64,000 nucleotides of DNA from Eledone cirrhosa (taxonomy: Eukaryota): the NCBI GenBank assembly GCA_964016885.1, contig OZ024740.1, positions 111,352,001 through 111,416,000 of the forward strand. Direction: 5' to 3'. The notes beneath the pieces are model-generated. The model was not told where the DNA came from, made no database searches, and saw only the letters and a program-made list of their open reading frames with translations. The stretch's first letter is position 1. The number at the start of each line of letters is the position of its first letter. Both the position numbers and the translations under genes were made by a program. Below are positions 933 to 37,519 of this stretch, in pieces.

Positions 933-1431
933 CAAATAACAGATTAAAGTTTAAGCAAAGAATGGCTGCTTTCACCCTTAACGGGATCTTCTGAAACTAA
1001 CAAAGTCAATCAGTAAACGCAGAACTGGATATTTCAAAAAAACGTTGCAACCGGAGGAAGACAGGAAGACGATACTTTGGTTCGTGGTAACGTTCGCTGG
1101 CAAAGAACGGGAAAAAACGAATAATACGTCATTAATAGGAGCGGTGAAAAACAATTACGCGCAAAGACAGAACCACGTTTATGGTATAAAAGAGGTCGTA
1201 GACTAATGTTCTCTTAGGTGGTGCATAGAGACGTTCTCTGGCAATGAACGAAAAAACGAAGATAATAAGTCAAATGTGGAGCGTGGAGAACAATAGCACG
1301 CAAAGACAAAATCACGTAAATGGTAAGCAGAAGTCGTAGACTTGCGTTACAGATTGACTTTGTTAGTTTTAGAAGATCCCGTTAAGGGTGAAAGCAACGA
1401 TTCTTTGCTTAAACTTTAATCTGTTATTCTA

Positions 1432-1439
<8 letters not shown>
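933..1439 (-). mobile_element. Pseudo-LTR of the left-edge PLE with a short inverted duplication, ending in (TA)n
   Basis: 933-1020 is the reverse complement of ~1345-1437. Contains ~140 bp internal tandem subrepeats. Lies upstream of the PLE ORF and abuts (TA)n. Confidence 0.8.
948..998 (-). ncRNA. Variant type I hammerhead motif (sense to PLE ORF); further copies at 1365-1415(+), 1508-1558(-), 2058-2108(+, mutated)
   Basis: Minus strand: agttt-CAGAAGA-t ccc gttaa ggg t-GAAA-gca...tgc-TT^-aaact. Stems I, II and III can all form; U4A core variant. Confidence 0.6.
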
Positions 1440-1490
<51 letters not shown>

Positions 1491-1491
<1 letters not shown>

Positions 1492-2123
1492 TAAAATAAC
1501 AGATTAAGGTTTAAGCAAAGAATCGCTGCTTTCACCCTTAACGGGATCTTCTGAAACTAACAAAGTCAATCTTTAAACAAAGAAGTGAATATTTCAAAAA
1601 AAGTTGCAACCGGAGAAAGACAGGAAGACGATACTTTGGTTCGTGGAAACGTTCCCTGGCAAAGAACGGGAAAAAATGGATATAATACGTCATTATTTGG
1701 AGCGGTGAAAAACAATTACACGCAAAGACAGAACCACGTTTATGGTATAAAAGAAGTCGTAGACTAATATTCTCTTAGGTGGTTCATAGAGACGTTCTCT
1801 GGCAATGAACGGAAAAAACGAAGATAATACTTCATAAGTGGACCGTGGAGAACAATTGCACGCAAAGACAAAACCACGTAAATGGTATAACTGAAGTCGT
1901 AGACTTTTCACCGCTCCAAATAATGACGTATTATATTCGTTTTTTCCCGTTATTTGCCAGGGAACGTTTCCACGAACCAAAGTATCGTCTTCCTGTCTTA
2001 CTCCGGTTGCAACGTTTTTTGAAATATTCCCTTCTGCGTTTAAAGATTGACTTTGTTAGTTTCAGAAGATCCCGTTAAGTGTGAAGGCAGCGATTCTTTG
2101 CTTAAACTTAATCTGTTATTTTA

Positions 2124-2829: not shown

Positions 2830-4420
2830 TCACCTCCAACCAGATTTTCAGCCGAAAATCGATAACGAAGAAACCAAGGACCCACATATTATTAAATCAG
2901 CAAGAACAAATGCTGAAAGAGCACATCAGTGAAAAAATAATTGAGCAGAAGGTTGCATGCAAGAACAAAAAATGAGGCGCTACGGGCCGTGTTGAGCCGC
3001 TGTGTCAAATGACCAGTTGTTTTGTTGTTTATACGTGACCGCCAAAGGTCTAACAAAAAACGGATAAAGTCTGACATGGGCGAAGTTGCTGTTCTTGCAT
3101 TAAATGTTAATGATAAGCGTTGTACCAGTAGCTGTGAACGAAGCTATTATGGTAGTTTACCAGTGCTGGCGAGAAAATGATGGCCCCCAGATATATTGTC
3201 GAATGTGCTGTGGAGCCAGGAAAAAAATGGCTGGTTGCTTTGTAAAGAACAAAAGGCAAGTTTAATCTGTAGGTGGGTTGCAGTGTAAATTCCATAATTC
3301 GGGCGCATCCACAGAAGTGGCCGAAATGTTGACAAGTCCAGTTCAATTTGTTGCTTTCCCAGCGAGTCGGGCAAAAACAACAATACGGATGGCCGTCATG
3401 GACGTTCAGTGTGCAACGAGATGCGAAGCTGTTTGAGTTCAGCTACAATTAGTATTCTCGTGTTGCGGTGACTGTTTAAATCCAGTGGATTAAGCACTGT
3501 GAGCTGCTAGCATGTGACAGCATCTCAACCAGGTGAAAAGGGACTCGCAGAATATTACGTTTGAAGAACATATACCAAGAACAACATGTTGATGTGTGAT
3601 AAAAAAAAATGTGTGCATATGCAGGCATGTAAAACAGCAAAGAATGTGAATGAACAAAAACCATGAGCAAGCAAATAGCAAAAGAGCACAAAACAAGTAA
3701 ATGCTTTCTACAAAGAAATATGGGAATGTAACAAACTGATAATTCAAAGTCAATCTAGGGGAGCAGAGAAATTGCTCAATAAGTTCAAAGTTTTTCAAAG
3801 TCAAATAGTTCACACATCACCAGTGTACAGACACTAGTTCTATCTGAAAACTGAAAAAGAAGTTTGTTAATGCCGTTAGGGGTTAGATGTATGGTCTTTT
3901 TGTGAGATTTCGTGGCCATCTTACCGTCCCGCCACACGGTAGTGTTGCTTATTGTTAAAGCAATGTCAAAGAATCTTCTGTAGAGTAGGAGTCACCAAAT
4001 ATGGCAGTCACGTCTGACGCCATAATGGTGAGAAAACTACTGTCGCAAATTCTCGCGTTCCTGTGGTAACGAGACAGAAGGTATGGTGGTTGCGTCGGTA
4101 AAGTTACAAGCCGTTTTGAAATTTCCGATGTGTGGTGGTTGGCGTCGGTAAGGTTATGAAGCTGCCACTCACTGTTCCCTGTATTGGCCAGTGGTTAAAC
4201 AACGCTGTCGCTGCTGCTGTCATTGCTGTTGTCAAGCGTAGCCATGACATGTCGGTAGCCATCTTGAAATTTTTTCGTGGCGAAAAAGTTTGCGAAATAC
4301 TGCTAATTTTTCAAAAATCTTAAAAGGAATATTCTGGATTTTCGCAAGTTGCGACGTGGCAATAAAAGTTAAACTGAATGAATAAGATGGGCTGCGTGAT
4401 ATTCTTACGTCGGTCACCAC

Positions 4421-24177: not shown

Positions 24178-24209
<32 letters not shown>

Positions 24210-24323
24210 AGTTGAAATAAAATGAAAACGAAATTTCATTTCTCACTCTTAGTACGGCACTTACTTAAATGTAAGTATGTGTGTATACGTACATACATAT
24301 ATGTATACAGACGTACAGTAGCA

Positions 24324-24412
<89 letters not shown>

Positions 24413-24442
24413 AGATCAAAAGATGGTTAAAGGAGTTCCATA

Positions 24443-24511
24443 TATTTTATTATGCGCATTTCAAAAAACAAACATCATGCAATAATATTTGTGTTTTCAT
24501 CAGATAAAACA
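24443..24511 (-). ncRNA. Type I hammerhead ribozyme in PLE 3' pLTR
   Basis: tgttttat-CTGATGA-stem II-GAAA-tgcgca-TA^-ataaaata. Confidence 0.8.
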
Positions 24512-25522
24512 GGAGAACATGATATGAAGGCTAAAAAACACTTGTGGATAGTGCAGTTTTAAATCAACATATGAAAAGTGGTTTTAGATGGATGTGTGAT
24601 ATTGGGAAAAATATTTTATTTAGAGAGGGGGGGGAGGATGAAAAGGGAAGGAGATGAGAGGGAGAGATGGGTGATAGAGAGAAAGAGATAGTTTTTATAA
24701 CTGAGAGGAGATATATTTTTTACATAGAGAGGTTGAAAACCGTTGGAAGATACTGTATAAATTAAAAATTTTGAAAATTAACGAAGGGAGGATATGTGCG
24801 AGGAAAAAATATTTTATTTAGGGAGGGGGGGTGGAAAGGATGAAAAAAAAAAAGGGGGGGGGGGAGGAGATGAGAGTGAAGGTGGAGGGGGAGAGATGAG
24901 TGATAGAGAGAAAGAGATAGTTTTTATAACTGAGAAAAAGATATATTGTTTTAATATAGAGAGGTTGGGAACCGTTGGAAGATAATGTATAAATTAAAGG
25001 AATTTGAAAATTAACGAAGGGAAATTATGTATGAAGATAGAGAGAAAAAAATAATAATTGTTGGTGAATATTCTAACGTCAAAAAAAGAAATGTATGTAT
25101 TGTGGCAATTTCAAAATTAGCGAAGAGAAAAATTGTTAAGGTTTGTGTGTAGAAGGATTTGAGAAAAATAATGTGAAGTTAAAGTTTGTATATTGATTGA
25201 ATTGATAATATGTGCGAATAAAGAGTTAATATGTATTAATAATGAGTTCGTTGATGGGGAGAAAAAAATAATAATAAATTAAGGATGAAATTGAGATTAA
25301 AAAGATTTATGATAGAGAGAAAAAATAATAATGATTGCGGATGAATATTCTAATGTCAAAAGAAATGTTATGATTTTACAAGAAGATAGAATGAGGGTAA
25401 TGAGTAAACGAGTATTATAGAGTGTATAATGCCCTTTAAAGTAAGGTAGATGGGTATATTTTAAAGAGGTGTATGTATATGTGCCTTTGAGAAAAGATTC
25501 TAAATTGATAAAGAATTGAATA

Positions 25523-27985
25523 TTAACTGTATACTTTGTGAAAAGTTCTATGGAATTTATGCAGGCAGATAGAAAACAAATCTGTGCGTCTATTTATTAT
25601 AGAATCTAGGTTAGAGATAATGGTAAATGTTTCATTTAGGCAGAGATTACAGATTTTAGATAGAGAGCTGTTCAAGTATGAGGATGCAGAAGAAATCTTC
25701 TTCCAAAAGATGGTATATTTAATGTTTTTGTCTTTTAAGGACCATATGAGTTCTGAGAGAGCAGTGTTAGTTCTTTTAAGTTTGTATTTGAAAGATGAAT
25801 GATGATTATAGAGACGAGCTTTAAAAGAGGTGGAAGTGGAGCCAAAATAGGTGAAGGAATTGGTGCTAGTTATAATTTTACATTCATAAATTAAGTTTTT
25901 ATCGAGACAATGGTTGTTGAGAGGACATTTATTTTTAATGCGGCAGTTGCAATTAGAGAGATTATTAATGAGTGATCTAGTGTTATCTATAGAAGGAATT
26001 GGATTGGAGAAGTTGTTTGCGATAGGAATAATAGGAATAATAGTTTCTTGATTTAGAGTTGGATTATGAACATTTAGCGAAGTTGTGTTTGACGTTGTAT
26101 TTGGGTTTACAGAAGTTAGCCTAGGGTTTACAATGACGTCGGGAGTACTATTACTGTTATTATGAAATTCAATATTGGAAGGAAGAGATTTAGTATTTAA
26201 TATTTTGTTGTTGTGTTTAGAGATGATGTTGGAAATATTGGAGGATGTAGAATACGAAAATTTGATGGTGTGTTTGTTAAATATTTTACTATAGATATGT
26301 GAGGGAGGGAAGCATTTATTTAAGGCACTAAAAAATAATTTAGGAATATTGTTATTAATAGAGATGGAGAAAGGAGCATTATACCAGATTATGTTTTTGT
26401 ATCTAGGTCTTTTATTAAAATTATTGGAATGGTCATGATTAATTATTCTACTGTAAGTTTTTCTAGAATTTGTTTCTTTATTATATTTGATTTTATCTGG
26501 ATAGCCGGCTTTAGAAAGTGCGTTATTATAGTAATTGGCGTTAGCATCAAAGATGTTTTTATTAGAAGATATGTTAGATATTCTATTTCCAATATTATTA
26601 ACTATAGCATTCTTGATATTGGTAGGATGGTTAGATTTAAAGTTAACATAATTAAGGTTCTCATTGTTTTTATGGTAAGTGTAATATAGGCCAGTGTCAA
26701 GATTAAGAGATACATCCAAGAAATTAGCTAGTTTGATACTATTATCAAATTCAATTTTTAGGTTATGTTGGTTAAAGAGATTACGTATATTGTTCTTAAT
26801 AATATTAAGTTTAACTATATTGCAATTTAGGATAGTAAAGAGTCCATCGTCACGATAAATTCCACCGCGAAGTTGAGGAATTTTCCGACTCAAAGAGTTC
26901 AAAATGAAGATACCAATTAAATCAGTCAATTGGGATGAATCGGATGCTCCCATTGTGATGTCGAAGTTGTTAGAGGTATCGGCTCTGGTCCAATATTCGT
27001 TGCTGAACTCTAGGATGGTTTTACGTGCGGTGAGGATGATGTGAAGTTCATCTGTGGTGATGTCAGAATATTTAAGTGCGAAAGATAGAGCATTATTGAG
27101 AAGTGAAGGCGAAATGGAGGAATAGTAGCTGGCAATATCAAATTGAATAAATTTTAGTTTGTTTTTATTATCCAATTTGTTGAACCAGCCAATCACTTCA
27201 GAAGTACCAAACCATAAATTTAGGTTCAAAGAAGAGCAATTAGAACTAACCTGTGGGATAATCCTATCCAAGATGGCTTTACTAACAACCCCCAGATCAG
27301 ATTTAGAGGGGGCGATTAATCTAACAGATAGTTCAGTGCGAAGATTGTTTTTGTGATCCTTGAGATTTATCCTCGGAGTTCTTGGGAGGAATGGTTCGGT
27401 CTTTTTTTCAATGCCAAGTTTTGACATAATCTCATAGGCTTCAAGGTTTATGCATTCTACATTTTCATGGTTGGTTTTACGATACTTTTTCCTAAGTTCC
27501 TTTAGGATAAGGTTGTTATAATTATCCTTGGAAATACCATATAGGTTATTGGTTTTGTCAGAGTGGACTAAAACATTTTTTGAGGAATTTAGGTTAGAGA
27601 TTGTGTTCTTGAGATTTACAAGGTGCTCTTGTCCTTTGTAAGGGTATCTCTTGAATTTAAGATTTTTTATAATTTTAGTTAATTCTTCCTCGAATTGTAC
27701 TAGATTTTTGTTGGAAGGAGGATTTCGTCTAGAATTAAAAAGATGATCGAGGAAGTTGTGTTCTTTGGTATGAAAGTTCCCTTTTAGGCGCTGGTCATAG
27801 AAATAGGCTGTCCATCTAAGTCTTCTTACGAAGGAGTCAGTTTTTTCAATAAGAAGTTTGGTGAATTCAGATTTACCAGGTATAGGAATGTCTTTAGTTG
27901 AATTGGTTATGTTGTAATAATCCATATTGTAGAAGAAGAGGTGAAGGACCATCAAAAGGTATCCAATATGAGAGTAAGCGCTCAA
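25523..27985 (-). CDS. PLE polyprotein: reverse transcriptase + C-terminal GIY-YIG endonuclease (intact; probable ATG at 27925, ~800 aa)
   Basis: HSDKTNN, RT motif A QFDIASYYSSI, B' ITMGASDSSQLTDL, C YRDD; linker CNCRIKNKCPLNNHC; GIY-YIG-like NLIYECK...TYFGSTSTSFKARLYNHH...CNLCLNE. Confidence 0.95.
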   Translation of the reverse strand: MSAYSHIGYLLMVLHLFFYNMDYYNITNSTKDIPIPGKSEFTKLLIEKTDSFVRRLRWTAYFYDQRLKGNFHTKEHNFLDHLFNSRRNPPSNKNLVQFEEELTKIIKNLKFKRYPYKGQEHLVNLKNTISNLNSSKNVLVHSDKTNNLYGISKDNYNNLILKELRKKYRKTNHENVECINLEAYEIMSKLGIEKKTEPFLPRTPRINLKDHKNNLRTELSVRLIAPSKSDLGVVSKAILDRIIPQVSSNCSSLNLNLWFGTSEVIGWFNKLDNKNKLKFIQFDIASYYSSISPSLLNNALSFALKYSDITTDELHIILTARKTILEFSNEYWTRADTSNNFDITMGASDSSQLTDLIGIFILNSLSRKIPQLRGGIYRDDGLFTILNCNIVKLNIIKNNIRNLFNQHNLKIEFDNSIKLANFLDVSLNLDTGLYYTYHKNNENLNYVNFKSNHPTNIKNAIVNNIGNRISNISSNKNIFDANANYYNNALSKAGYPDKIKYNKETNSRKTYSRIINHDHSNNFNKRPRYKNIIWYNAPFSISINNNIPKLFFSALNKCFPPSHIYSKIFNKHTIKFSYSTSSNISNIISKHNNKILNTKSLPSNIEFHNNSNSTPDVIVNPRLTSVNPNTTSNTTSLNVHNPTLNQETIIPIIPIANNFSNPIPSIDNTRSLINNLSNCNCRIKNKCPLNNHCLDKNLIYECKIITSTNSFTYFGSTSTSFKARLYNHHSSFKYKLKRTNTALSELIWSLKDKNIKYTIFWKKISSASSYLNSSLSKICNLCLNETFTIISNLDSIINRRTDLFSICLHKFHRTFHKVYS

Positions 27986-28129
27986 CCGTTAAGGAGCAAG
28001 TTAATGTAGGAGGTGAGTTTTATTGTAGTACAATAAAGCAATGCAGATATCGGATAAGAAGCACTCTACAGTTTGTGGGACTGGAGTATGCATAATATAA
28101 GATCAAAAGATGGTTAAAGGAGTTCCATA

Positions 28130-28200
28130 TATTGGATTATGCGCATTTCAAAAACAAACATCATCATGCAATAATATTTGTGTTTTCATCAGATAAAAAA
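28130..28200 (-). ncRNA. Type I hammerhead motif in PLE 5' pLTR (stem I 3' strand mutated)
   Basis: Core and ATGCGCAT palindrome intact; ataaaa has become atccaa after the cleavage site. Confidence 0.65.
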
Positions 28201-29452
28201 GGAGAACATGATATGAAGGCTAAAAAACACTTGTGGATAGTGCAGTTTTAAATCAACATATGAAAAGTGGTTTTAGATTGATGTGTGATATTGGGAAAAA
28301 TATTTTATTTAGAGAGGGGGGAGGATGAAAAGGGAAGGAGATGAGAGGGAGAGCTGGGTGATAGAGAGAAAGAGATAGTTTTTATAACTGAGAGGAGATA
28401 TATTTTTTACATAGAGAGGTTGAAAACCGTTGGAAGATACTGTATAAATTAAAAATTTTGAAAATTAACGAAGGGAGGATATGTGCGAGGAAAAAGTATT
28501 TTATTTAGGGAGGTGGGTGGGGTGGAAAGGATGAAAAAAAAAAAGGGGGAGGAGATGAGAGTGAAGGTGGAGGGGGAGAGATGGGTGATAGAGAGAAAGA
28601 GATAGTTTTTATAACTGAGAAAAAGATATATTGTTTTAATATAGAGAGGTTGGGAACCGTTGGAAGATAATGTATAAATTAAAGGAATTTGAAAATTAAC
28701 GAAGGGAAATTATGTATGAAGATAGAGAGAAAAAAATAATAATTGTGGGTGAATATTCTAACGTCAAAAAAAGAAATGTATGTATTGTGGCAATTTCAAA
28801 ATTAGCGAAGAGAAAAATTGTTAAGGTTTGTGTGTAGAAGGATTTGAGAAAAATAATGTGAAGTTAAAGTTTGTATATTGATTGAATTGATAATATGTGC
28901 GAATAAAGAGTTAATATGTATTAATAATGAGTTCGTTGATGGGGAGAAAAAAATAATAATAAATTAAGGATGAAATTGAGATTAAAAAGATTTATGATAG
29001 AGAGAAAAAATAATAATGATTGCGGATGAATATTCTAATGTCAAAACAAATGTTATGATTTTACAAGAAGATAGAATGAGGGTAATGAGTAAACGAGTAT
29101 TATAGAGTGTATAATGCCCTTCATCCTTTCCACCCCCCCCCCTCCCTAAATAAAATATTCTTTCCTCGCACATATCCTCCCTTCGTTAATTTTCAAAATT
29201 TTTAATTTATACAGTATCTTCCAACGGTTTTCAACCACTCTATGTAAAAAATATATCTCCTCTCAGTCATAAAAACTATCTCTTTCTCTCTATCACCCAT
29301 CTCTCCCTCTCATCTCCTTCCCTTTTCATCCCCCCCCTCTCTAAATAAAACATTTTTCCCAATATCACACATCAATCTAAAACCACTTTTCATATGTTGA
29401 TTTAAAACTGCACTATCCACAAGTGTTTTTTAGCCTTCATATCATGTTCTCC

Positions 29453-29522
29453 TGTTTTATCTGATGAAAACACAAATATTATCGCATGATGATGTTTGTT
29501 TTTGAAATGCGCATAATAAAAT
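29453..29522 (+). ncRNA. Type I hammerhead ribozyme in PLE 5' pLTR
   Basis: tgttttat-CTGATGA-aaacacaaatattatc gcat gatgatgtttgttttt-GAAA-tgcgca-TA^-ataaaata. Confidence 0.8.
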
Positions 29523-29667
29523 ATATGGAACTCCTTTAACCATCTTTTGATCTTATATTATGCATACTCCAGTCCCACAAACTGTAGAGTGCTTCTTATC
29601 CGATATCTGCATTGCTTTATTGTACTACAATAAAACTCACCTCCTACATTAACTTGCTCCTTAACGG

Positions 29668-32129
29668 TTGAGCGCTTACTCTCATATTGGATACCTTTTG
29701 ATGGTCCTTCACCTCTTCTTCTACAACATGGATTATTACAACATAACCAATTCAACTAAAGACATTCCTATACCTGGTAAATCTGAATTCACCAAACTTC
29801 TTATTGAAAAAACTGACTCCTTCGTAAGAAGACTTAGATGGACAGCCTATTTCTATGACCAGCGCCTAAAAGGGAACTTTCATACCAAAGAACACAACTT
29901 CCTCGATCATCTTTTTAATTCTAGACGAAATCCTCCTTCCAACAAAAATCTAGTACAATTCGAGGAAGAATTAACTAAAATTATAAAAAATCTTAAATTC
30001 AAGAGATACCCTTACAAAGGACAAGAGCACCTTGTAAATCTCAAGAACACAATCTCTAACCTAAATTCCTCAAAAAATGTTTTAGTCCACTCTGACAAAA
30101 CCAATAACCTATATGGTATTTCCAAGGATAATTATAACAACCTTATCCTAAAGGAACTTAGGAAAAAGTATCGTAAAACCAACCATGAAAATGTAGAATG
30201 CATAAACCTTGAAGCCTATGAGATTATGTCAAAACTTGGCATTGAAAAAAAGACCGAACCATTCCTCCCAAGAACTCCGAGGATAAATCTCAAGGATCAC
30301 AAAAACAATCTTCGCACTGAACTATCTGTTAGATTAATCGCCCCCTCTAAATCTGATCTGGGGGTTGTTAGTAAAGCCATCTTGGATAGGATTATCCCAC
30401 AGGTTAGTTCTAATTGCTCTTCTTTGAACCTAAATTTATGGTTTGGTACTTCTGAAGTGATTGGCTGGTTCAACAAATTGGATAATAAAAACAAACTAAA
30501 ATTTATTCAATTTGATATTGCCAGCTACTATTCCTCCATTTCGCCTTCACTTCTCAATAATGCTCTATCTTTCGCACTTAAATATTCTGACATCACCACA
30601 GATGAACTTCACATCATCCTCACCGCACGTAAAACCATCCTAGAGTTCAGCAACGAATATTGGACCAGAGCCGATACCTCTAACAACTTCGACATCACAA
30701 TGGGAGCATCCGATTCATCCCAATTGACTGATTTAATTGGTATCTTCATTTTGAACTCTTTGAGTCGGAAAATTCCTCAACTTCGCGGTGGAATTTATCG
30801 TGACGATGGACTCTTTACTATCCTAAATTGCAATATAGTTAAACTTAATATTATTAAGAACAATATACGTAATCTCTTTAACCAACATAACCTAAAAATT
30901 GAATTTGATAATAGTATCAAACTAGCTAATTTCTTGGATGTATCTCTTAATCTTGACACTGGCCTATATTACCCTTACCATAAAAACAATGAGAACCTTA
31001 ATTATGTTAACTTTAAATCTAACCATCCTACCAATATCAAGAATGCTATAGTTAATAATATTGGAAATAGAATATCTAACATATCTTCTAATAAAAACAT
31101 CTTTGATGCTAACGCCAATTACTATAATAACGCACTTTCTAAAGCCGGCTATCCAGATAAAATCAAATATAATAAAGAAACAAATTCTAGAAAAACTTAC
31201 AGTAGAATAATTAATCATGACCATTCCAATAATTTTAATAAAAGACCTAGATACAAAACATAATCTGGTATAATGCTCCTTTCTCCATCTCTATTAATAA
31301 CAATATTCCTAAATTATTTTTTAGTGCCTTAAATAAATGCTTCCCTCCCTCACATATCTATAGTAAAATATTTAACAAACACACCATCAAATTTTCGTAT
31401 TCTACATCCTCCAATATTTCCAACATCATCTCTAAACACAACAACAAAATATTAAATACTAAATCTCTTCCTTCCAATATTGAATTTCATAATAACAGTA
31501 ATAGTACTCCCGACGTCATTGTAAACCCTAGGCTAACTTCTGTAAACCCAAATACAACGTCAAACACAACTTCGCTAAATGTTCATAATCCAACTCTAAA
31601 TCAAGAAACTATTATTCCTATTATTCCTATCGCAAACAACTTCTCCAATCCAATTCCTTCTATAGATAACACTAGATCACTCATTAATAATCTCTCTAAT
31701 TGCAACTGCCGCATTAAAAATAAATGTCCTCTCAACAACCATTGTCTCGATAAAAACTTAATTTATGAATGTAAAATTATAACTAGCACCAATTCCTTCA
31801 CCTATTTTGGCTCCACTTCCACCTCTTTTAAAGCTCGTCTCTATAATCATCATTCATCTTTCAAATACAAACTTAAAAGAACTAACACTGCTCTCTCAGA
31901 ACTCATATGGTCCTTAAAAGACAAAAACATTAAATATACCATCTTTTGGAAGAAGATTTCTTCTGCTTCCTCATACTTGAACAGCTCTCTATCTAAAATC
32001 TGTAATCTCTGCCTAAATGAAAAATTTACCATTATCTCTAACCTAGATTCTATAATAAATAGACGCACAGATTTGTTTTCTATCTGCCTGCATAAATTCC
32101 ATAGAACTTTTCACAAAGTATACAGTTAA
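29668..32129 (+). pseudogene. PLE RT + GIY-YIG ORF with a single -1 frameshift near 31258 (possibly a homopolymer sequencing error)
   Basis: Matches the minus ORF apart from a few substitutions. It reads agatacAAAAcataatc versus AAAAA in the other copy; the downstream frame continues to TAA at 32127-32129. Confidence 0.85.
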
Positions 32130-33140
32130 TATTCAATTCTTTATCAATTTAGAATCTTTTCTCAAAGGCACATATACATACACCTCTTTAAAATATACCC
32201 ATCTACCTTACTTTAAAGGGCATTATACACTCTATAATACTCGTTTACTCATTACCCTCATTCTATCTTCTTGTAAAATCATAACATTTCTTTTGACAAT
32301 AGAATATTCATCCGCAATCATTATTATTTTTTCTCTCTATCATAAATCTTTTTAATCTCAATTTCATCCTTAATTTATTATTATTTTTTTCTCCCCATCA
32401 ACGAACTCATTATTAATACATATTAACTCTTTATTCGCACATATTATCAATTCAATCAATATACAAACTTTAACTTCACATTATTTTTCTCAAATCCTTC
32501 TACACACAAACCTTAACAATTTTTCTCTTCGCTAATTTTGAAATTGCCACAATACATACATTTCTTTTTTTGACGTTAGAATATTCACCCACAATTATTA
32601 TTTTTTTCTCTCTATCTTCATACATAATTTCCCTTCGTTAATTTTCAAATTCCTTTAATTTATACATTATCTTCCAACGGTTCCCAACCTCTCTATATTA
32701 AAACAATATATCTTTTTCTCAGTTATAAAAACTATCTCTTTCTCTCTATCACCCATCTCTCCCCCTCCACCTTCACTCTCATCTCCTCCCCCTTTTTTTT
32801 TTTCATCCTTTCCACCCCACCCACCTCCCTAAATAAAATATTTTTTCCTCGCACATATCCTCTCTTCGTTAATTTTCAAAATTTTTAATTTATACAGTAT
32901 CTTCCAACGGTTTTCAACCTCTCTATGTAAAAAATATATCTCCTCTCAGTTATAAAAACTATCTCTTTCTCTCTATCACCCATCTCTCCCTCTCATCTCC
33001 TTCCCTTTTCATCCTTCCCCCCCCCTCTGTAAATAAAATATTTTTCCCAATATCACACATCAATCTAAAACCACTTTTCATATGTTGATTTAAAACTGCA
33101 CTATCCACAAGTGTTTTTTAGCCTTCATATCATGTTCTCC

Positions 33141-33208
33141 TGTTTTATCTGATGAAAACACATATTATTGTATGATGATGTTTGTTTTTGAAATGCGCAT
33201 AATAAAAT
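33141..33208 (+). ncRNA. Type I hammerhead ribozyme in PLE 3' pLTR
   Basis: Same motif as 29453-29522. Confidence 0.8.
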
Positions 33209-33333
33209 ATATGGAACTCCTTTAACCATCTTTTGATCTTATATTATGCATACTCCAGTCCCACAAACTGTAGAGTGCTTCTTATCCGATATCTGCATTG
33301 CTTTATTGTACTACAATAAAACTCACCTCCTAC

Positions 33334-33417
<84 letters not shown>

Positions 33418-33569
33418 CAGGTACACATACATATATGCACGTATTAGTTTAGCGGACGCTTATTATAACGCCGCTTTGTTCGTTTGTAAACAAACTGAAC
33501 AGCCTGAATTTTTATGCCGTACGGTGTTAAGGCAACCACGTCACCTTTTTGTTCACCACTGACACAGGA

Positions 33570-33612
33570 ACGATGTACTAGTTTCAAGCTTGTTAGCTAT
33601 CATCAGCACCGT
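33570..33612 (-). ncRNA. Minimal type I hammerhead ribozyme motif
   Basis: acggtg-CTGATGA-t agc taacaa gct t-GAAA-ctag-TA^-catcgt; palindrome ACTAGT. Confidence 0.8.
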
Positions 33613-33863
33613 ATACCCATCTGACAGATAGTTGAACGTTCGAAAGTATATACTTTCTTTATGAAAATTAACGGCTGAGAAGCCTAATTTGCATATCGAG
33701 TGAGCTAAGTCGGTCAGGCATACCGAAAACGATAAGTTGAAATAAAATGAAAACGAAATTTCATTTCTCACTCTTAGTACGGCACTTACTTAAATGTAAG
33801 TATGTGTGTATACGTACATACATATATGTATACAGACGTACAGTAGCATGCATATATATATAT

Positions 33864-34476
33864 ATGGTGGTGGCTGCCAACTCGTTTTCGAGAACGGCCA
33901 CTACTTTATATCCATGTAGGAGAACCCCTACCAATGCGCTGAACGACTGTGACTTTTTAGTCCAGCCGGCGACTTGAAAACTCTGGTACAAACACTACAC
34001 TTGTGACAACTATTGACACATAGTGCTGGGCCCATGGTACCATGTGACGACAAGTGCAGAGAGATCTCCAGATATAAAGCAATGCTTGTGCCGTGAAGCT
34101 TTTATAGTGAGCAAAGGCACTGCACAAAGCCAGTCCCACTCTCTTAACCAAGATGATATTTACCAAAAAGAAAAACAAGTCAACATCATTGGATACCATC
34201 AGGGTTGCAGGTGTTATATCAGAGTTTTCCTTCTCATAGAATTCTGCCTTGACAAAGGCTAAGGGGTCATCTCTCCCGGTGATTTTGGATGGCCATTGAC
34301 ACTTAAGAGCTCCTTTGCCCTTTGACAGGTTTTGTTTTTAGTCCTGCAGGATGTCCAATGTCACCCGCCTCACCAAGAAACCTTGGTGGGGTTGCCAGTT
34401 TAGTCGCCAACGACCCGACCATGAGACAGGTTGTACTGGGATACATGTTACCAGTAGCACCAACTGGTGACCTGAC
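33864..34476 (-). mobile_element. Bipartite non-autonomous RTE-derived retroposon
   Basis: The 3' part encodes a C2H2 finger HKCSVCTRVFKSPAGLKSHSRSAH, as at RTE ORF ends. Five copies in the window; others end in (ATGT)n. Confidence 0.65.
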
Positions 34477-34793
34477 ATATATATATATATATATATACAT
34501 ATATACATACAGGTACACATACATATATGCACGTATCAGTTTAGCGGACGCTTATTATAACGCCGCTTTGCTCGTTTGTAAACAAACTGAACAGCCTGAA
34601 TTATTATGCCGTACGGTGTTAAGGCAACCACGTCACCTTGTCAGTGTTGAAAAAAAGGTGACGTGGTTGCCTTAACACCGTACGGCATAAAAATTCAGGC
34701 TGTTCAGTTTGTTTACAAACGAACAAAGCGGCGTTATAATAAGCGTCCGCTAAACTGATACGTGCATATATGTATGTGTACCTGTATGTATAA

Positions 34794-34840
<47 letters not shown>

Positions 34841-34919
34841 TGCTACTGTACGTCTGTATACATATATGTATGTACGTATACACACATACTTACATTTATA
34901 TATATATATATATATTTCT

Positions 34920-35587
34920 AGGGCGGGTAAAATTTCCGAGATCCATGGACGAGAGTTCTCTTCAGCGGTCTCTGTCTCTCATTTTCGCTGCCATGTCCTG
35001 CGTCTCCAACAGGCCAGTGTCTGTCCTTAGTGCATCAACAGGCGTTAACCTTGGTCTTCCTCTTCCAGTGTGTCCATGTAGGGGCTCCCACAGGGGCACT
35101 GAGTGCAATGTGAACTATGGATGTCGGTGAATATGTCCAGCTAACCTCAGTCTCCTCTGTTTCCCTTTTGAGCTGACATTTGGGAGGCTCCCATAAAGCT
35201 CTGTGTTTTTCATCCTCAGTATATACTGATTAATGTTCAGAGCCACCCTCAGCATTCTCGGGTAGCACCCATCCACCATCTGTGGACCATCACTGCCTGA
35301 TGATCTTACAGGCTTATGGAATCCCCAAGAAGATAGTGGACCTGATATCACTGCTCTACACCAACACTAATGTCCAAGTCATTACACCTGATGGGATGAC
35401 ATAGTTCTTTGAGATACTGGCTGGTGTGCTCCAGGGAGATACATTGGCTCCCTACCTTTTTATCATCGTAGTGGGCTATTGTATGCGCCTTGCACTGGAG
35501 AAACACCAGGACTCTGGCTATACTGTAGCACCGGCTCAGACCAGGAGAGTTAAGGCGAAAAAGATATCAGATGCTGAATTTGCCGAC

Positions 35588-35590
<3 letters not shown>
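34920..35590. pseudogene. RTE-type LINE fragment with internal inversion
   Basis: Plus: GVLQGDTLAPYLFIIVV...EFADDI. Minus: DGCYPRMLRVALNI...RRLRLAGHIHRHP. Confidence 0.75.
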
Positions 35591-35648
<58 letters not shown>

Positions 35649-35956
35649 GCAAAACTACGAACACACTAAGATAGACTTATCCAATCCAGCGTACACATAC
35701 ATACACACAGGCAAACACACATGGACACTTTCATTTGCTTCCTGATTTACATTAAACTGATTTACTTACTGACAGACAATCAATTTGGATAGACACCATT
35801 AAACATACACACACAAATATGTGTGTGTCTCATAGACGGTATAAGTGTGTTTGTGTTTATACAGTATATTTCTATATGTGTACAGATATACGGCAATGCG
35901 TACATGTATGTATTTATATACCTATTTTTGTCAATCTATCTATCTATCTATCTATC

Positions 35957-36920
35957 CTGGGTCAAGAAAAGACCGAAAACGATGGGCGCCTGGCACATTG
36001 AATGCGCTGAGGCGCTCACAGTCCTCTGGCAAGCGGGTGCAGCAATCAGTGGAGATTCCACTTCGACATTCTATAGAGGGATTGTACGTTATAAGGGCGA
36101 CGACGTGCTCGGAGAGGCACTGGGCGTCGAAGACGATGAGCTCACCAGTCTGTTTGGTAGGACTTTCCACCCGGGACCTATGGACAACTTCCAGAGGTCC
36201 CTGGCCTGGCAGTGCAACCGAGGTGCTCTACCGGTTCGTGACAAGATCTACAGGCACGGACACCCTGGCAGGGATCCTTCCAAGAGGGTGTGTCCAAGAT
36301 GCGCGCAGGACATTGAAACAGTCCTGCACGCAATTGTACACTGCCCGGGCGTAACTGACCTGTGGAACTATGCAGAACAACTGCTGTCGCGTATGGGACA
36401 AATCCAGTTGACTGCCGAGTCCATAGTAATGATCAAACCTCTTTCAAAAAGAGAGGCGATTTTCCTCTGTACGGTGGCTATGGTGAAAGAAGTTAGATGG
36501 TGGACGAGATCGAGAGGACTGAGGACAGATGCCTTTCTCTCCGGACAACAATTGATTCCCTTCTTTAAGTATCACTTTAGAAGGAGAATCAGAGTGGAGA
36601 GACAGGCACTGCACCCCAGTAAATATACTGAAAGGTGGGTGAATGAAGCGAAAGGTGGATCTTCTCTGTTTATAAGCCTGTATGTTGAAGAAAAGAGCAA
36701 AAGGAAGAAAGGAGCACTTGCACAACACGCTCCTGGAGTTGAGGGCTGTTCAATCTACGGGGTATTAAACAACTTATTTGTGGCGCGTGACCCCTATTGG
36801 GGATTTCGATTGTTGTAATTGTTTGTTTTTATATTTTTTACACGACTGTATGTAAAATCCCCGGCATGTCTTTGTATTGTCCCCTTTTCTTGTGCGCCCT
36901 TGTGGCTAATAAAGACATTT
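35957..36920 (+). mobile_element. 5'-truncated Tx1/L1-type LINE (ORF2 C-terminal zf-RVT-like region + 3' UTR) in (TATC)n
   Basis: LAWQCNRGALPVRDK...CPRCAQDIETVLHAIVHC. The 3' UTR matches 41690-41945; aataaa is followed by (TATC)n. Confidence 0.85.
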
Positions 36921-37519
36921 ATCTATCTATCTATCTATTTATATATCTATCTATCTATCTATCTTTCTGTTTGACGCGTGAAAGATCGCGGGTAAGATTT
37001 TTTCGAAATTTATTTACGAAAAACAGAACAAATTGTTTGAAAAAACATATTATTTTGTAGATTAACCCCCAAGCTGAATTGTCAGCTGGGTGGTAATCTC
37101 ATTTTATTTTAAAAATTGTTTTAAAATATCAAATTTTACAAACTAAATAACTTGAACAACACAAGAACGCTGGAGAACGTCAATAGAGAAAAGAGAGAGA
37201 AAGAGGCAGATATTAACGTTATAGCTGCTTCTGCTACTATGGACGTCGTCATAGATAGGACTGTCAACAAAGGGGAAAAAATGTTACCACTTGAAGATTT
37301 TAAAATTTCTACCGTCGAAGAAAAATAACAATAACGGAGAAAAATAACAATAACACACAGGAAAACACAGGAATTAAACCTATTAACATACATACACATG
37401 AAAAAGACATCAACAACTCCACAGATACATCTACACATAAAGTTTCACCTCATCAAGGAACTGAGATTTCCAACATCGAGGCTAACAACGATAACAGCAA
37501 CACCACACAAAAAAAAAAG

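What the first reader, a model, noticed from the sequence alone, without database searches (positions are those of the whole stretch)
24208..34899. Retrozyme-like ~480 bp HHR unit whose internal (TA)n serves as a landing pad, with filled and empty sites side by side
Seen: a non-coding unit occurs as about 1.5 tandem copies plus an inverted partial copy (24208-24327 / 33413-33853 / 34503-34639 / inverted 34640-34899). It carries a clean minimal HHR at 33570-33612(-). The (TA)n inside the unit, between ...gtagcatgca and catacaggtacac..., holds the 9 kb PLE dimer in one copy and a 613 bp RTE-derived element in the next, and is empty in the inverted copy (34795-34838). Known: non-LTR retrozymes are short HHR-containing tandem repeats that yield circular RNAs and are proposed to use PLE machinery. 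Inference: a non-autonomous ribozyme retroelement that carries and spreads the microsatellite target used by PLEs.
Basis: partly seen in the sequence, partly recalled or inferred. Interest (0 to 1): 0.75.

Follow-up and report, generated by a model that had tools for sequence, protein, structure and literature searches.

The report
Hammerhead retrozyme with Penelope insertion footprint
A non-coding repeat of about 480 bases with a hammerhead-ribozyme pattern sits at thousands of TA-repeat sites in this animal genome with the same two fixed ends as a resident Penelope-type retrotransposon, so it is likely copied by that kind of enzyme, possibly from a circular RNA, while its inner TA tract is hit by other elements no more often than any other TA tract.

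Summary
The unit (441 nt plus a TA linker) is a dispersed family: 10,314 exact copies of its hammerhead core in the 3.0 Gb genome, in arrays of 1 to about 13 units. Insertions sit in (TA)n as two head-to-head arms. In 25 of 25 classifiable cases one arm starts at unit position 379 and the other at 320 (p=6e-8). The nested 8.9 kb element is a Hydra-clade Penelope-like element (PLE) and follows the same one-tail rule (18 of 19). The hammerhead and RNA fold are kept, with compensatory changes, in a ~76% identical sister family. So this is a non-LTR retrozyme, likely moved in trans by a Hydra-type PLE enzyme; which family is open. The landing-pad reading fails: 5 of 146 inner tracts are filled, neither nested family is enriched there, and the sister family has only a 12-nt linker. 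Cleavage, expression and circles are untested (no RNA run listed). The kind is published, and this scan has reported the same footprint elsewhere in this genome, probably for this same family.

The parts
24207..24327 (-). Terminal stub of the left arm (unit 320-441); its outer end is the distal, 'tail' start site joined to (TA)n
   Evidence: 100% identical to 33732-33853; 42 of 82 stubs in 52 loci start here
24328..24404 (.). Left half of the first inner TA linker, split by the PLE
24405..29121 (-). Hydra-clade PLE, minus arm: terminal repeat, 90-nt tail, 821-codon open frame (25523-27988), terminal repeat ending at the no-tail site; own hammerhead at 24445-24509
   Evidence: motifs RWT, DKT, CxCX5C, CxxC and CxH match the Hydra description
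29120..33337 (+). Hydra-clade PLE, plus arm, head-to-head with the minus arm; frame split by a 1-nt loss; ends at the tail site; hammerheads at 29455-29521 and 33143-33207
   Evidence: 98.9% identical to the minus arm; 1-nt gap
33338..33412 (.). Right half of the first inner TA linker
33413..33853 (-). One full unit (441 nt, 38% GC, no frame over 98 codons); RNA sense is the minus strand; fold z-score -5.6
33570..33612 (-). Minimal type I hammerhead pattern; predicted cut between 33576 and 33575
33732..33791 (-). The 59-nt 'tail' between the two fixed start sites (unit 379 and 320)
33866..34476 (-). 611-bp non-autonomous element nested in the second inner TA linker; C2H2 zinc-finger remnant near its 3' end; RTE origin likely, parent not found
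   Evidence: 27,863 exact matches to its 3' end; zf-C2H2 E=5e-5, below the curated cut-off
34505..34639 (-). Truncated unit (1-135), inner end of the left arm
34639..34899 (+). Inverted right arm: unit 152-1, empty TA linker (about 34795-34838), stub 441-379 ending at the proximal, no-tail site in (TA)n

Best explanation
This is a high-copy, non-coding hammerhead repeat (a non-LTR retrozyme) that is likely pasted into (TA)n microsatellites by the enzyme of a Hydra-type Penelope-like element, probably from a circular RNA. Shown: thousands of dispersed young copies; outer ends in (TA)n; two head-to-head arms; one arm starting at unit 379 and the other at 320; the same rule in the resident Hydra family; a conserved hammerhead and fold. 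Inferred steps: arrays are transcribed; the hammerhead cuts (likely as a dimer, since stem III is only a self-complementary 6-mer); monomers are ligated to circles; the PLE endonuclease cuts both strands of a TA tract; the two DNA ends prime copying at two fixed internal sites 59 nt apart, with 2-3 nt of TA overlap; copying runs round the circle for a variable length; the two copies join head-to-head. The TA tract inside the unit is carried in the RNA at the tip of a long stem and likely grew by slippage; later elements land in it as in any TA tract.
For: Copy number and dispersal. End rule 25 of 25, 76 of 79 fixed ends in TA; Hydra family 18 of 19, abundant and young (7,557 matches; many intact 821-codon frames among 131 scored matches). 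Two internal start sites that leave a one-sided tail were shown in vitro for a Poseidon PLE (PMC11167929); Hydra elements target (TA)n and carry hammerheads (PMC8557442). Selection on the RNA: 4 of 43 hammerhead positions differ from the sister family against 91 of 396 elsewhere (p=0.049), and they are N7, loop II and a G-U to U-G swap in stem I; 10 of 113 predicted pairs show two-sided changes. Template is not a cut linear monomer: 1 of 76 arm ends lies near the cut site, 3.4 expected at random. Units within an array differ by a median 0.47% against 4.4% between loci and share linker interruptions in 105 of 174 pairs against 331 of 6,496.
Against: No RNA evidence of cleavage or circles was obtained. 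The U-U mismatch at the base of stem II and the missing stem III may make cleavage weak; 8 of 9 Xenopus retrozyme dimers did not cleave in vitro (bioRxiv 10.64898/2026.07.22.740005), and PLE insertion in vitro did not need hammerhead cleavage. No sequence shared with the terminal repeats of two Hydra families, so the partner family is not identified. Fusions with PLE-type elements are weak evidence: 4 of 6 obey the end rule, 3 expected by chance, and unit arms also abut RTE-type elements at 4 loci. For 11 of 57 units in multi-unit arrays the nearest relative lies in another locus, and L083 and L101 are not homogeneous. The two-sided changes are mostly single events between two lineages.
Confidence: 0.72

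Rival explanations
1. Same PLE-type enzyme, but the template is an uncut linear read-through transcript of an existing array (or the enzyme re-primes on one RNA); the hammerhead is not needed for movement.
For: PLE insertion in vitro used unprocessed RNA and hammerhead mutants still inserted. A young, homogeneous parent array would also give homogeneous daughters. L101 mixes alleles of two subfamilies in one array.
Against: A linear copy cannot be longer than its parent, yet arrays of 10 or more units at 0.14% divergence exist (L112). The hammerhead is the best-kept part between sister families.
Confidence: 0.2
2. Landing-pad: the unit carries and spreads the TA target that PLEs need, as a functional part of its life cycle.
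For: The tract is inside the unit and is copied with it; both inner tracts of the left arm here are filled; 5 of 146 inner tracts in 52 loci are filled; the young family's linker (median 41 nt) is longer than the sister family's (12 nt).
Against: Inner tracts are about 0.47-0.65% of all TA tracts of 16 nt or more (extrapolated). Hydra no-tail ends next to a unit linker: 6 in one orientation against at least 2,371 ends, about 0.2-0.5% after doubling. The 611-bp element: 9 in one orientation of 27,863, about 0.07% after doubling. No enrichment. The sister family spread to over a thousand sites with a short linker. The patterns miss long linkers and some subfamilies, so both counts are lower bounds.
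Confidence: 0.05
3. The unit is the solo terminal repeat of a rare or extinct coding PLE, or a satellite amplified at the DNA level.
For: Xenopus retrozymes are homologous to PLE terminal repeats. Only part of the genome's copies could be inspected.
Against: No repeated unit-to-frame junction in 52 unbiased loci, 30 best-match loci or 30 sister loci; the sequence beyond the tail continues into the next unit, not into a frame; fixed asymmetric ends and inversions at dispersed sites do not come from unequal crossover.
Confidence: 0.03

Closest known systems
Metazoan non-LTR retrozymes (Cervera and de la Pena 2020, PMC7229834; passages and Discussion read)
   Same: Short non-coding tandem units with a type I hammerhead, low GC, thousands of copies, highly self-paired fold, PLEs proposed as the mobiliser and circles as the template.
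   Different: Unit about 480 nt (their RNAs 170-400 nt); minimal rather than canonical hammerhead; a microsatellite inside the unit; two-armed insertions with fixed unequal ends, which the parts read do not describe; circles shown there, untested here.
Li, Clavereau and Pollet, bioRxiv 10.64898/2026.07.22.740005 (abstract to discussion read; supplements closed)
   Same: Retrozymes as non-autonomous passengers of PLEs; units of 51-972 bp.
   Different: Their link is co-occurrence and homology to PLE terminal repeats in Xenopus; here no such homology was found and the link is the insertion footprint.
Hydra clade of PLEs (Craig et al. 2021, PMC8557442; section 11 and passages read)
   Same: The nested 8.9 kb element has the clade's motifs, a hammerhead, (TA)n targeting, inverted copies and a one-sided tail; the unit shares the last three.
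   Different: Tails here are 90 nt (PLE) and 59 nt (unit) against 30-40 bp described; the unit encodes nothing.
Poseidon PLE of Anolis in vitro (Frangieh et al. 2024, PMC11167929; main text read)
   Same: Both strands cut and extended; copying starts at two internal RNA sites whose spacing is the tail.
   Different: Another clade; no difference in start site between strands was seen in vitro, whereas genomic insertions here use one site per arm.
MRC1 and other non-autonomous Chlamys PLEs of Chlamydomonas (passage in PMC8557442)
   Same: [quoted passage not shown]
   Different: They resemble their autonomous partners at the 3' end; most Chlamys elements lack hammerheads.

Membership tests
Non-LTR retrozyme | Type I hammerhead in each tandem unit | tested here: met
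   Core pattern intact in 67 of 75 full units (loci were chosen by an exact core match, so this is biased upward); kept in the sister family
Non-LTR retrozyme | Short tandem repeats at many loci, no coding frame, low GC, no LTR layout | tested here: met
   10,314 cores, 52 loci per 100 cores; GC 38%, longest frame 98 codons
Non-LTR retrozyme | Highly self-paired RNA fold | tested here: met
   z=-5.58, 0 of 100 shuffles as good; 10 of 113 pairs with two-sided change
Non-LTR retrozyme | Self-cleavage of the transcript | not testable with these tools
   Pattern only
Non-LTR retrozyme | Expression as monomeric circular RNA | not testable with these tools
   No run on record as RNA was offered
PLE-mobilised non-autonomous element | Inverted truncated copy and a tail at one end only | tested here: met
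   25 of 25; sister family has the same two ends
PLE-mobilised non-autonomous element | Same target as the autonomous partner | tested here: met
   76 of 79 fixed ends in TA; Hydra ends in TA
PLE-mobilised non-autonomous element | Sequence shared with the partner's terminal repeat or tail | tested here: not met
   No match beyond simple-repeat words to two Hydra families or elsewhere in 1.16 Mb of fetched DNA; other Hydra families were not examined in full
Hydra-clade PLE (nested 8.9 kb element) | RWK-like and DKT motifs, CxCX5C linker, CxxC and CxH, C-terminal endonuclease, hammerhead, (TA)n target | tested here: met
   Read from the translation against the paper's list; no tree built; Pfam and PDB gave no useful match
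RTE-derived element (nested 611 bp) | Homology to an RTE parent | tested here: inconclusive
   C2H2 remnant; resemblance to RTE ends is recalled, no parent found in the window

The most novel reading that the evidence does not exclude
A Penelope enzyme dimer recognises a retrozyme circle by shape alone, with no sequence borrowed from its own ends, and copies it by rolling circle from both ends of one DNA break, one subunit bound to each of two start sites. The strict one-tail rule would be the genomic record of that asymmetric dimer, and the few unit-PLE fusions would be cases where the complex held two different RNAs.
Probability: 0.35. Interest if true: 0.75.

Novelty: new member of a known kind. 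Interest (0 to 1): 0.45.

Why it matters
Which enzyme moves animal retrozymes, and whether a circle is the template, is proposed in print but was not shown in the papers read. A young 480-nt non-coding unit with two mapped start sites, a known target and an intact candidate enzyme in the same genome makes both questions directly testable in vitro. The strict one-site-per-arm rule also bears on how PLEs make inverted copies and one-sided tails. The landing-pad idea adds little.

Tried and rejected
Rfam scan: no hit on this hammerhead among rows shown. RNA runs: no RNA holder listed; the three runs offered are contigs of one sample and of unstated kind, and laying them showed only presence. Naiad identity for the PLE: rejected, the endonuclease is C-terminal. 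A shared start signal: a small bulged hairpin (RCUC paired with GAGY) can be read by eye just after the start sites of the Hydra family and of two neighbouring families, but in this unit the same words pair at long range in reversed order, so it is not established here. Hammerhead conservation within the young family was not used, since loci were chosen by that motif. One last pattern search used a wrong motif and found nothing; it carries no information. Literature: six searches found no paper describing fixed unequal ends or an inner microsatellite in a retrozyme; the library lacks most subscription papers, and the preprint's supplements and those of Craig et al. were not seen.
Full report
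Observation. With the two nested inserts removed, the locus reads unit 320-441, TA, a full unit, TA, unit 1-135, an inversion, unit 152-1, TA, unit 441-379 (unit position 1 = window 33413). A minimal type I hammerhead pattern lies at 33570-33612 on the minus strand. It is the only one of this unit at this locus.

Copy number. The window lies in a 3.0 Gb genome. The 36-nt core has 10,314 exact matches, control 0. I fetched all 52 loci that hold the first 100 matches on contig C1, which extrapolates to roughly 5,400 loci. Copies are 87-98% identical to the window's unit and stand in arrays of 1 to about 13 units. The unit is 38% GC and has no frame over 98 codons.

Footprint. Of 82 terminal stubs, 42 start at about unit 320, 37 at about 379 and 3 elsewhere; 76 of the 79 fixed ends join (TA)n, with 2-3 nt shared with the TA run (read). 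The inner ends vary. Among 27 two-armed insertions, 25 have one end of each kind, none has two alike, and 2 have a damaged stub (p=6e-8 for 25 of 25). Exact junction patterns give 388 and 1,085 genome-wide matches for single variants of the two ends.

The nested PLE. The 8.9 kb insert is two head-to-head arms meeting at about 29120, 98.9% identical. Its 821-codon frame has RWT, DKT, CxCX5C, CxxC and CxH, the Hydra-clade marks listed by Craig et al. (PMC8557442, section 11), who also report hammerheads and (TA)n targeting. One arm ends 90 nt beyond the other. The family has 7,557 matches to its hammerhead flank and many intact frames. In 20 paired loci, 18 have one tail and one no-tail end, 1 has two no-tail ends and 1 could not be classed. 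Frangieh et al. (PMC11167929, main text) showed in vitro that a PLE protein cuts and extends both strands and starts at two internal RNA sites whose spacing is the tail. The unit therefore shows the PLE footprint in full. That a Hydra-type enzyme moves it is inference.

Which partner. The unit shares no sequence with the terminal repeats of two Hydra families or with other DNA among 1.16 Mb fetched. Two of 52 loci are direct fusions with the window's Hydra family (L077, L074), and four with other TA-targeting families (L068, L091, L069, L109). Four of these six obey the one-tail rule and two appear not to; unit arms also abut RTE-type elements at four loci. The partner family stays open.

Selection on the RNA. 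A sister family, 73-78% identical with 1,592 first-look candidates, has the same two ends at matching positions. Majority letters differ at 4 of 43 hammerhead positions and 91 of 396 others (p=0.049); the four are the variable core position, loop II and a G-U to U-G swap in stem I. Ten of 113 predicted pairs show two-sided changes, several in long-range helices next to the start sites (20 sequences); these are mostly single events between two lineages. The monomer folds at z=-5.58.

Template. A linear monomer cut at the hammerhead would stop copying at unit 163. Only 1 of 76 arm ends lies there, 3.4 expected at random. Units within an array differ by a median 0.47% (133 pairs) against 4.4% between loci (2,642 pairs) and share linker interruptions far more often (105 of 174 against 331 of 6,496); L064 has 6 variants fixed in its six units and absent from the other loci. 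This fits rolling-circle copying of one monomer, as proposed by Cervera and de la Pena (PMC7229834, Discussion). It does not exclude uncut transcripts of young arrays, and L083 and L101 are less uniform.

Landing pad. Five of 146 inner linkers are filled, by five different elements. Inner linkers are about 0.47-0.65% of the genome's TA tracts by extrapolation. The Hydra no-tail end lies beside a linker 6 times in one orientation; the denominator is at least 2,371 (a shortened end form) and nearer 6,000 if the full form that dominates the sampled loci is added, so about 0.2-0.5% after doubling. The 611-bp element does so 9 times of 27,863. Both counts are lower bounds, but neither shows an excess. 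The sister family's linker is 12 nt (41 copies not selected by the query: 6-16 nt, one 64) against a median 41 nt in the young family. The tract closes a long stem in the fold, so it likely grew by slippage at a tolerant place.

Known kind and novelty. This is a new member of the non-LTR retrozymes, slightly larger than the first-described ones and within the range of Li et al. (bioRxiv 10.64898/2026.07.22.740005, abstract to discussion read), who argue for a PLE link from co-occurrence and homology. Six searches found no paper with the fixed unequal ends in a retrozyme. Earlier notes of this scan report the same footprint for several families in this genome, two of them at 465-467 bp and probably this family; a look-up by sequence returned nothing. 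Those notes call the animal a cephalopod; I did not test that. Cleavage, expression and circles remain untested.

Noticed in passing
L124, L126-L131, L133, L139, L160 and others; window about 33079: Many short two-armed copies of the Hydra family have both arms ending at one point (PLE position 3518-3521, window about 33079, a CATATG palindrome about 120 nt upstream of the hammerhead cut). It may mark the element's transcription start, giving miniature inverted elements of about 430 bp.
   Followed up: partly
window 44504-44650, 63400-63660; L061:4649-5018, L068, L091: Another TA-targeting family with two fixed ends about 80 nt apart and head-to-head arms; fused to unit arms at two loci.
   Followed up: partly
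window 1377-1547; L063, L069, L091: Palindromic ends of a second Hydra-type family whose protein is about 39% identical to the window's.
   Followed up: partly
window 44946-44990 (+) and 45291-45348 (-): Two further type I hammerhead patterns of other families; the first is the only hammerhead row that Rfam showed (31.7 bits, cut-off 34).
   Followed up: no
L146:1000-2000, L192-L221: Sister retrozyme family, period about 420-425 nt, ~76% identical, short linker, same two ends.
   Followed up: yes
window 34918-41405: Fragments of non-LTR elements with endonuclease and reverse-transcriptase Pfam hits begin just right of the array.
   Followed up: no
window 45535-45920, 62180-62708, 63054-63383: Three more, 5'-truncated copies of the 611-bp element, with (ATGT)n or (AT)n at the 3' end, outside any unit.
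   Followed up: partly
L061-L221: At least ten other type I hammerhead families occur in the fetched flanks, several with long stem II.
   Followed up: no
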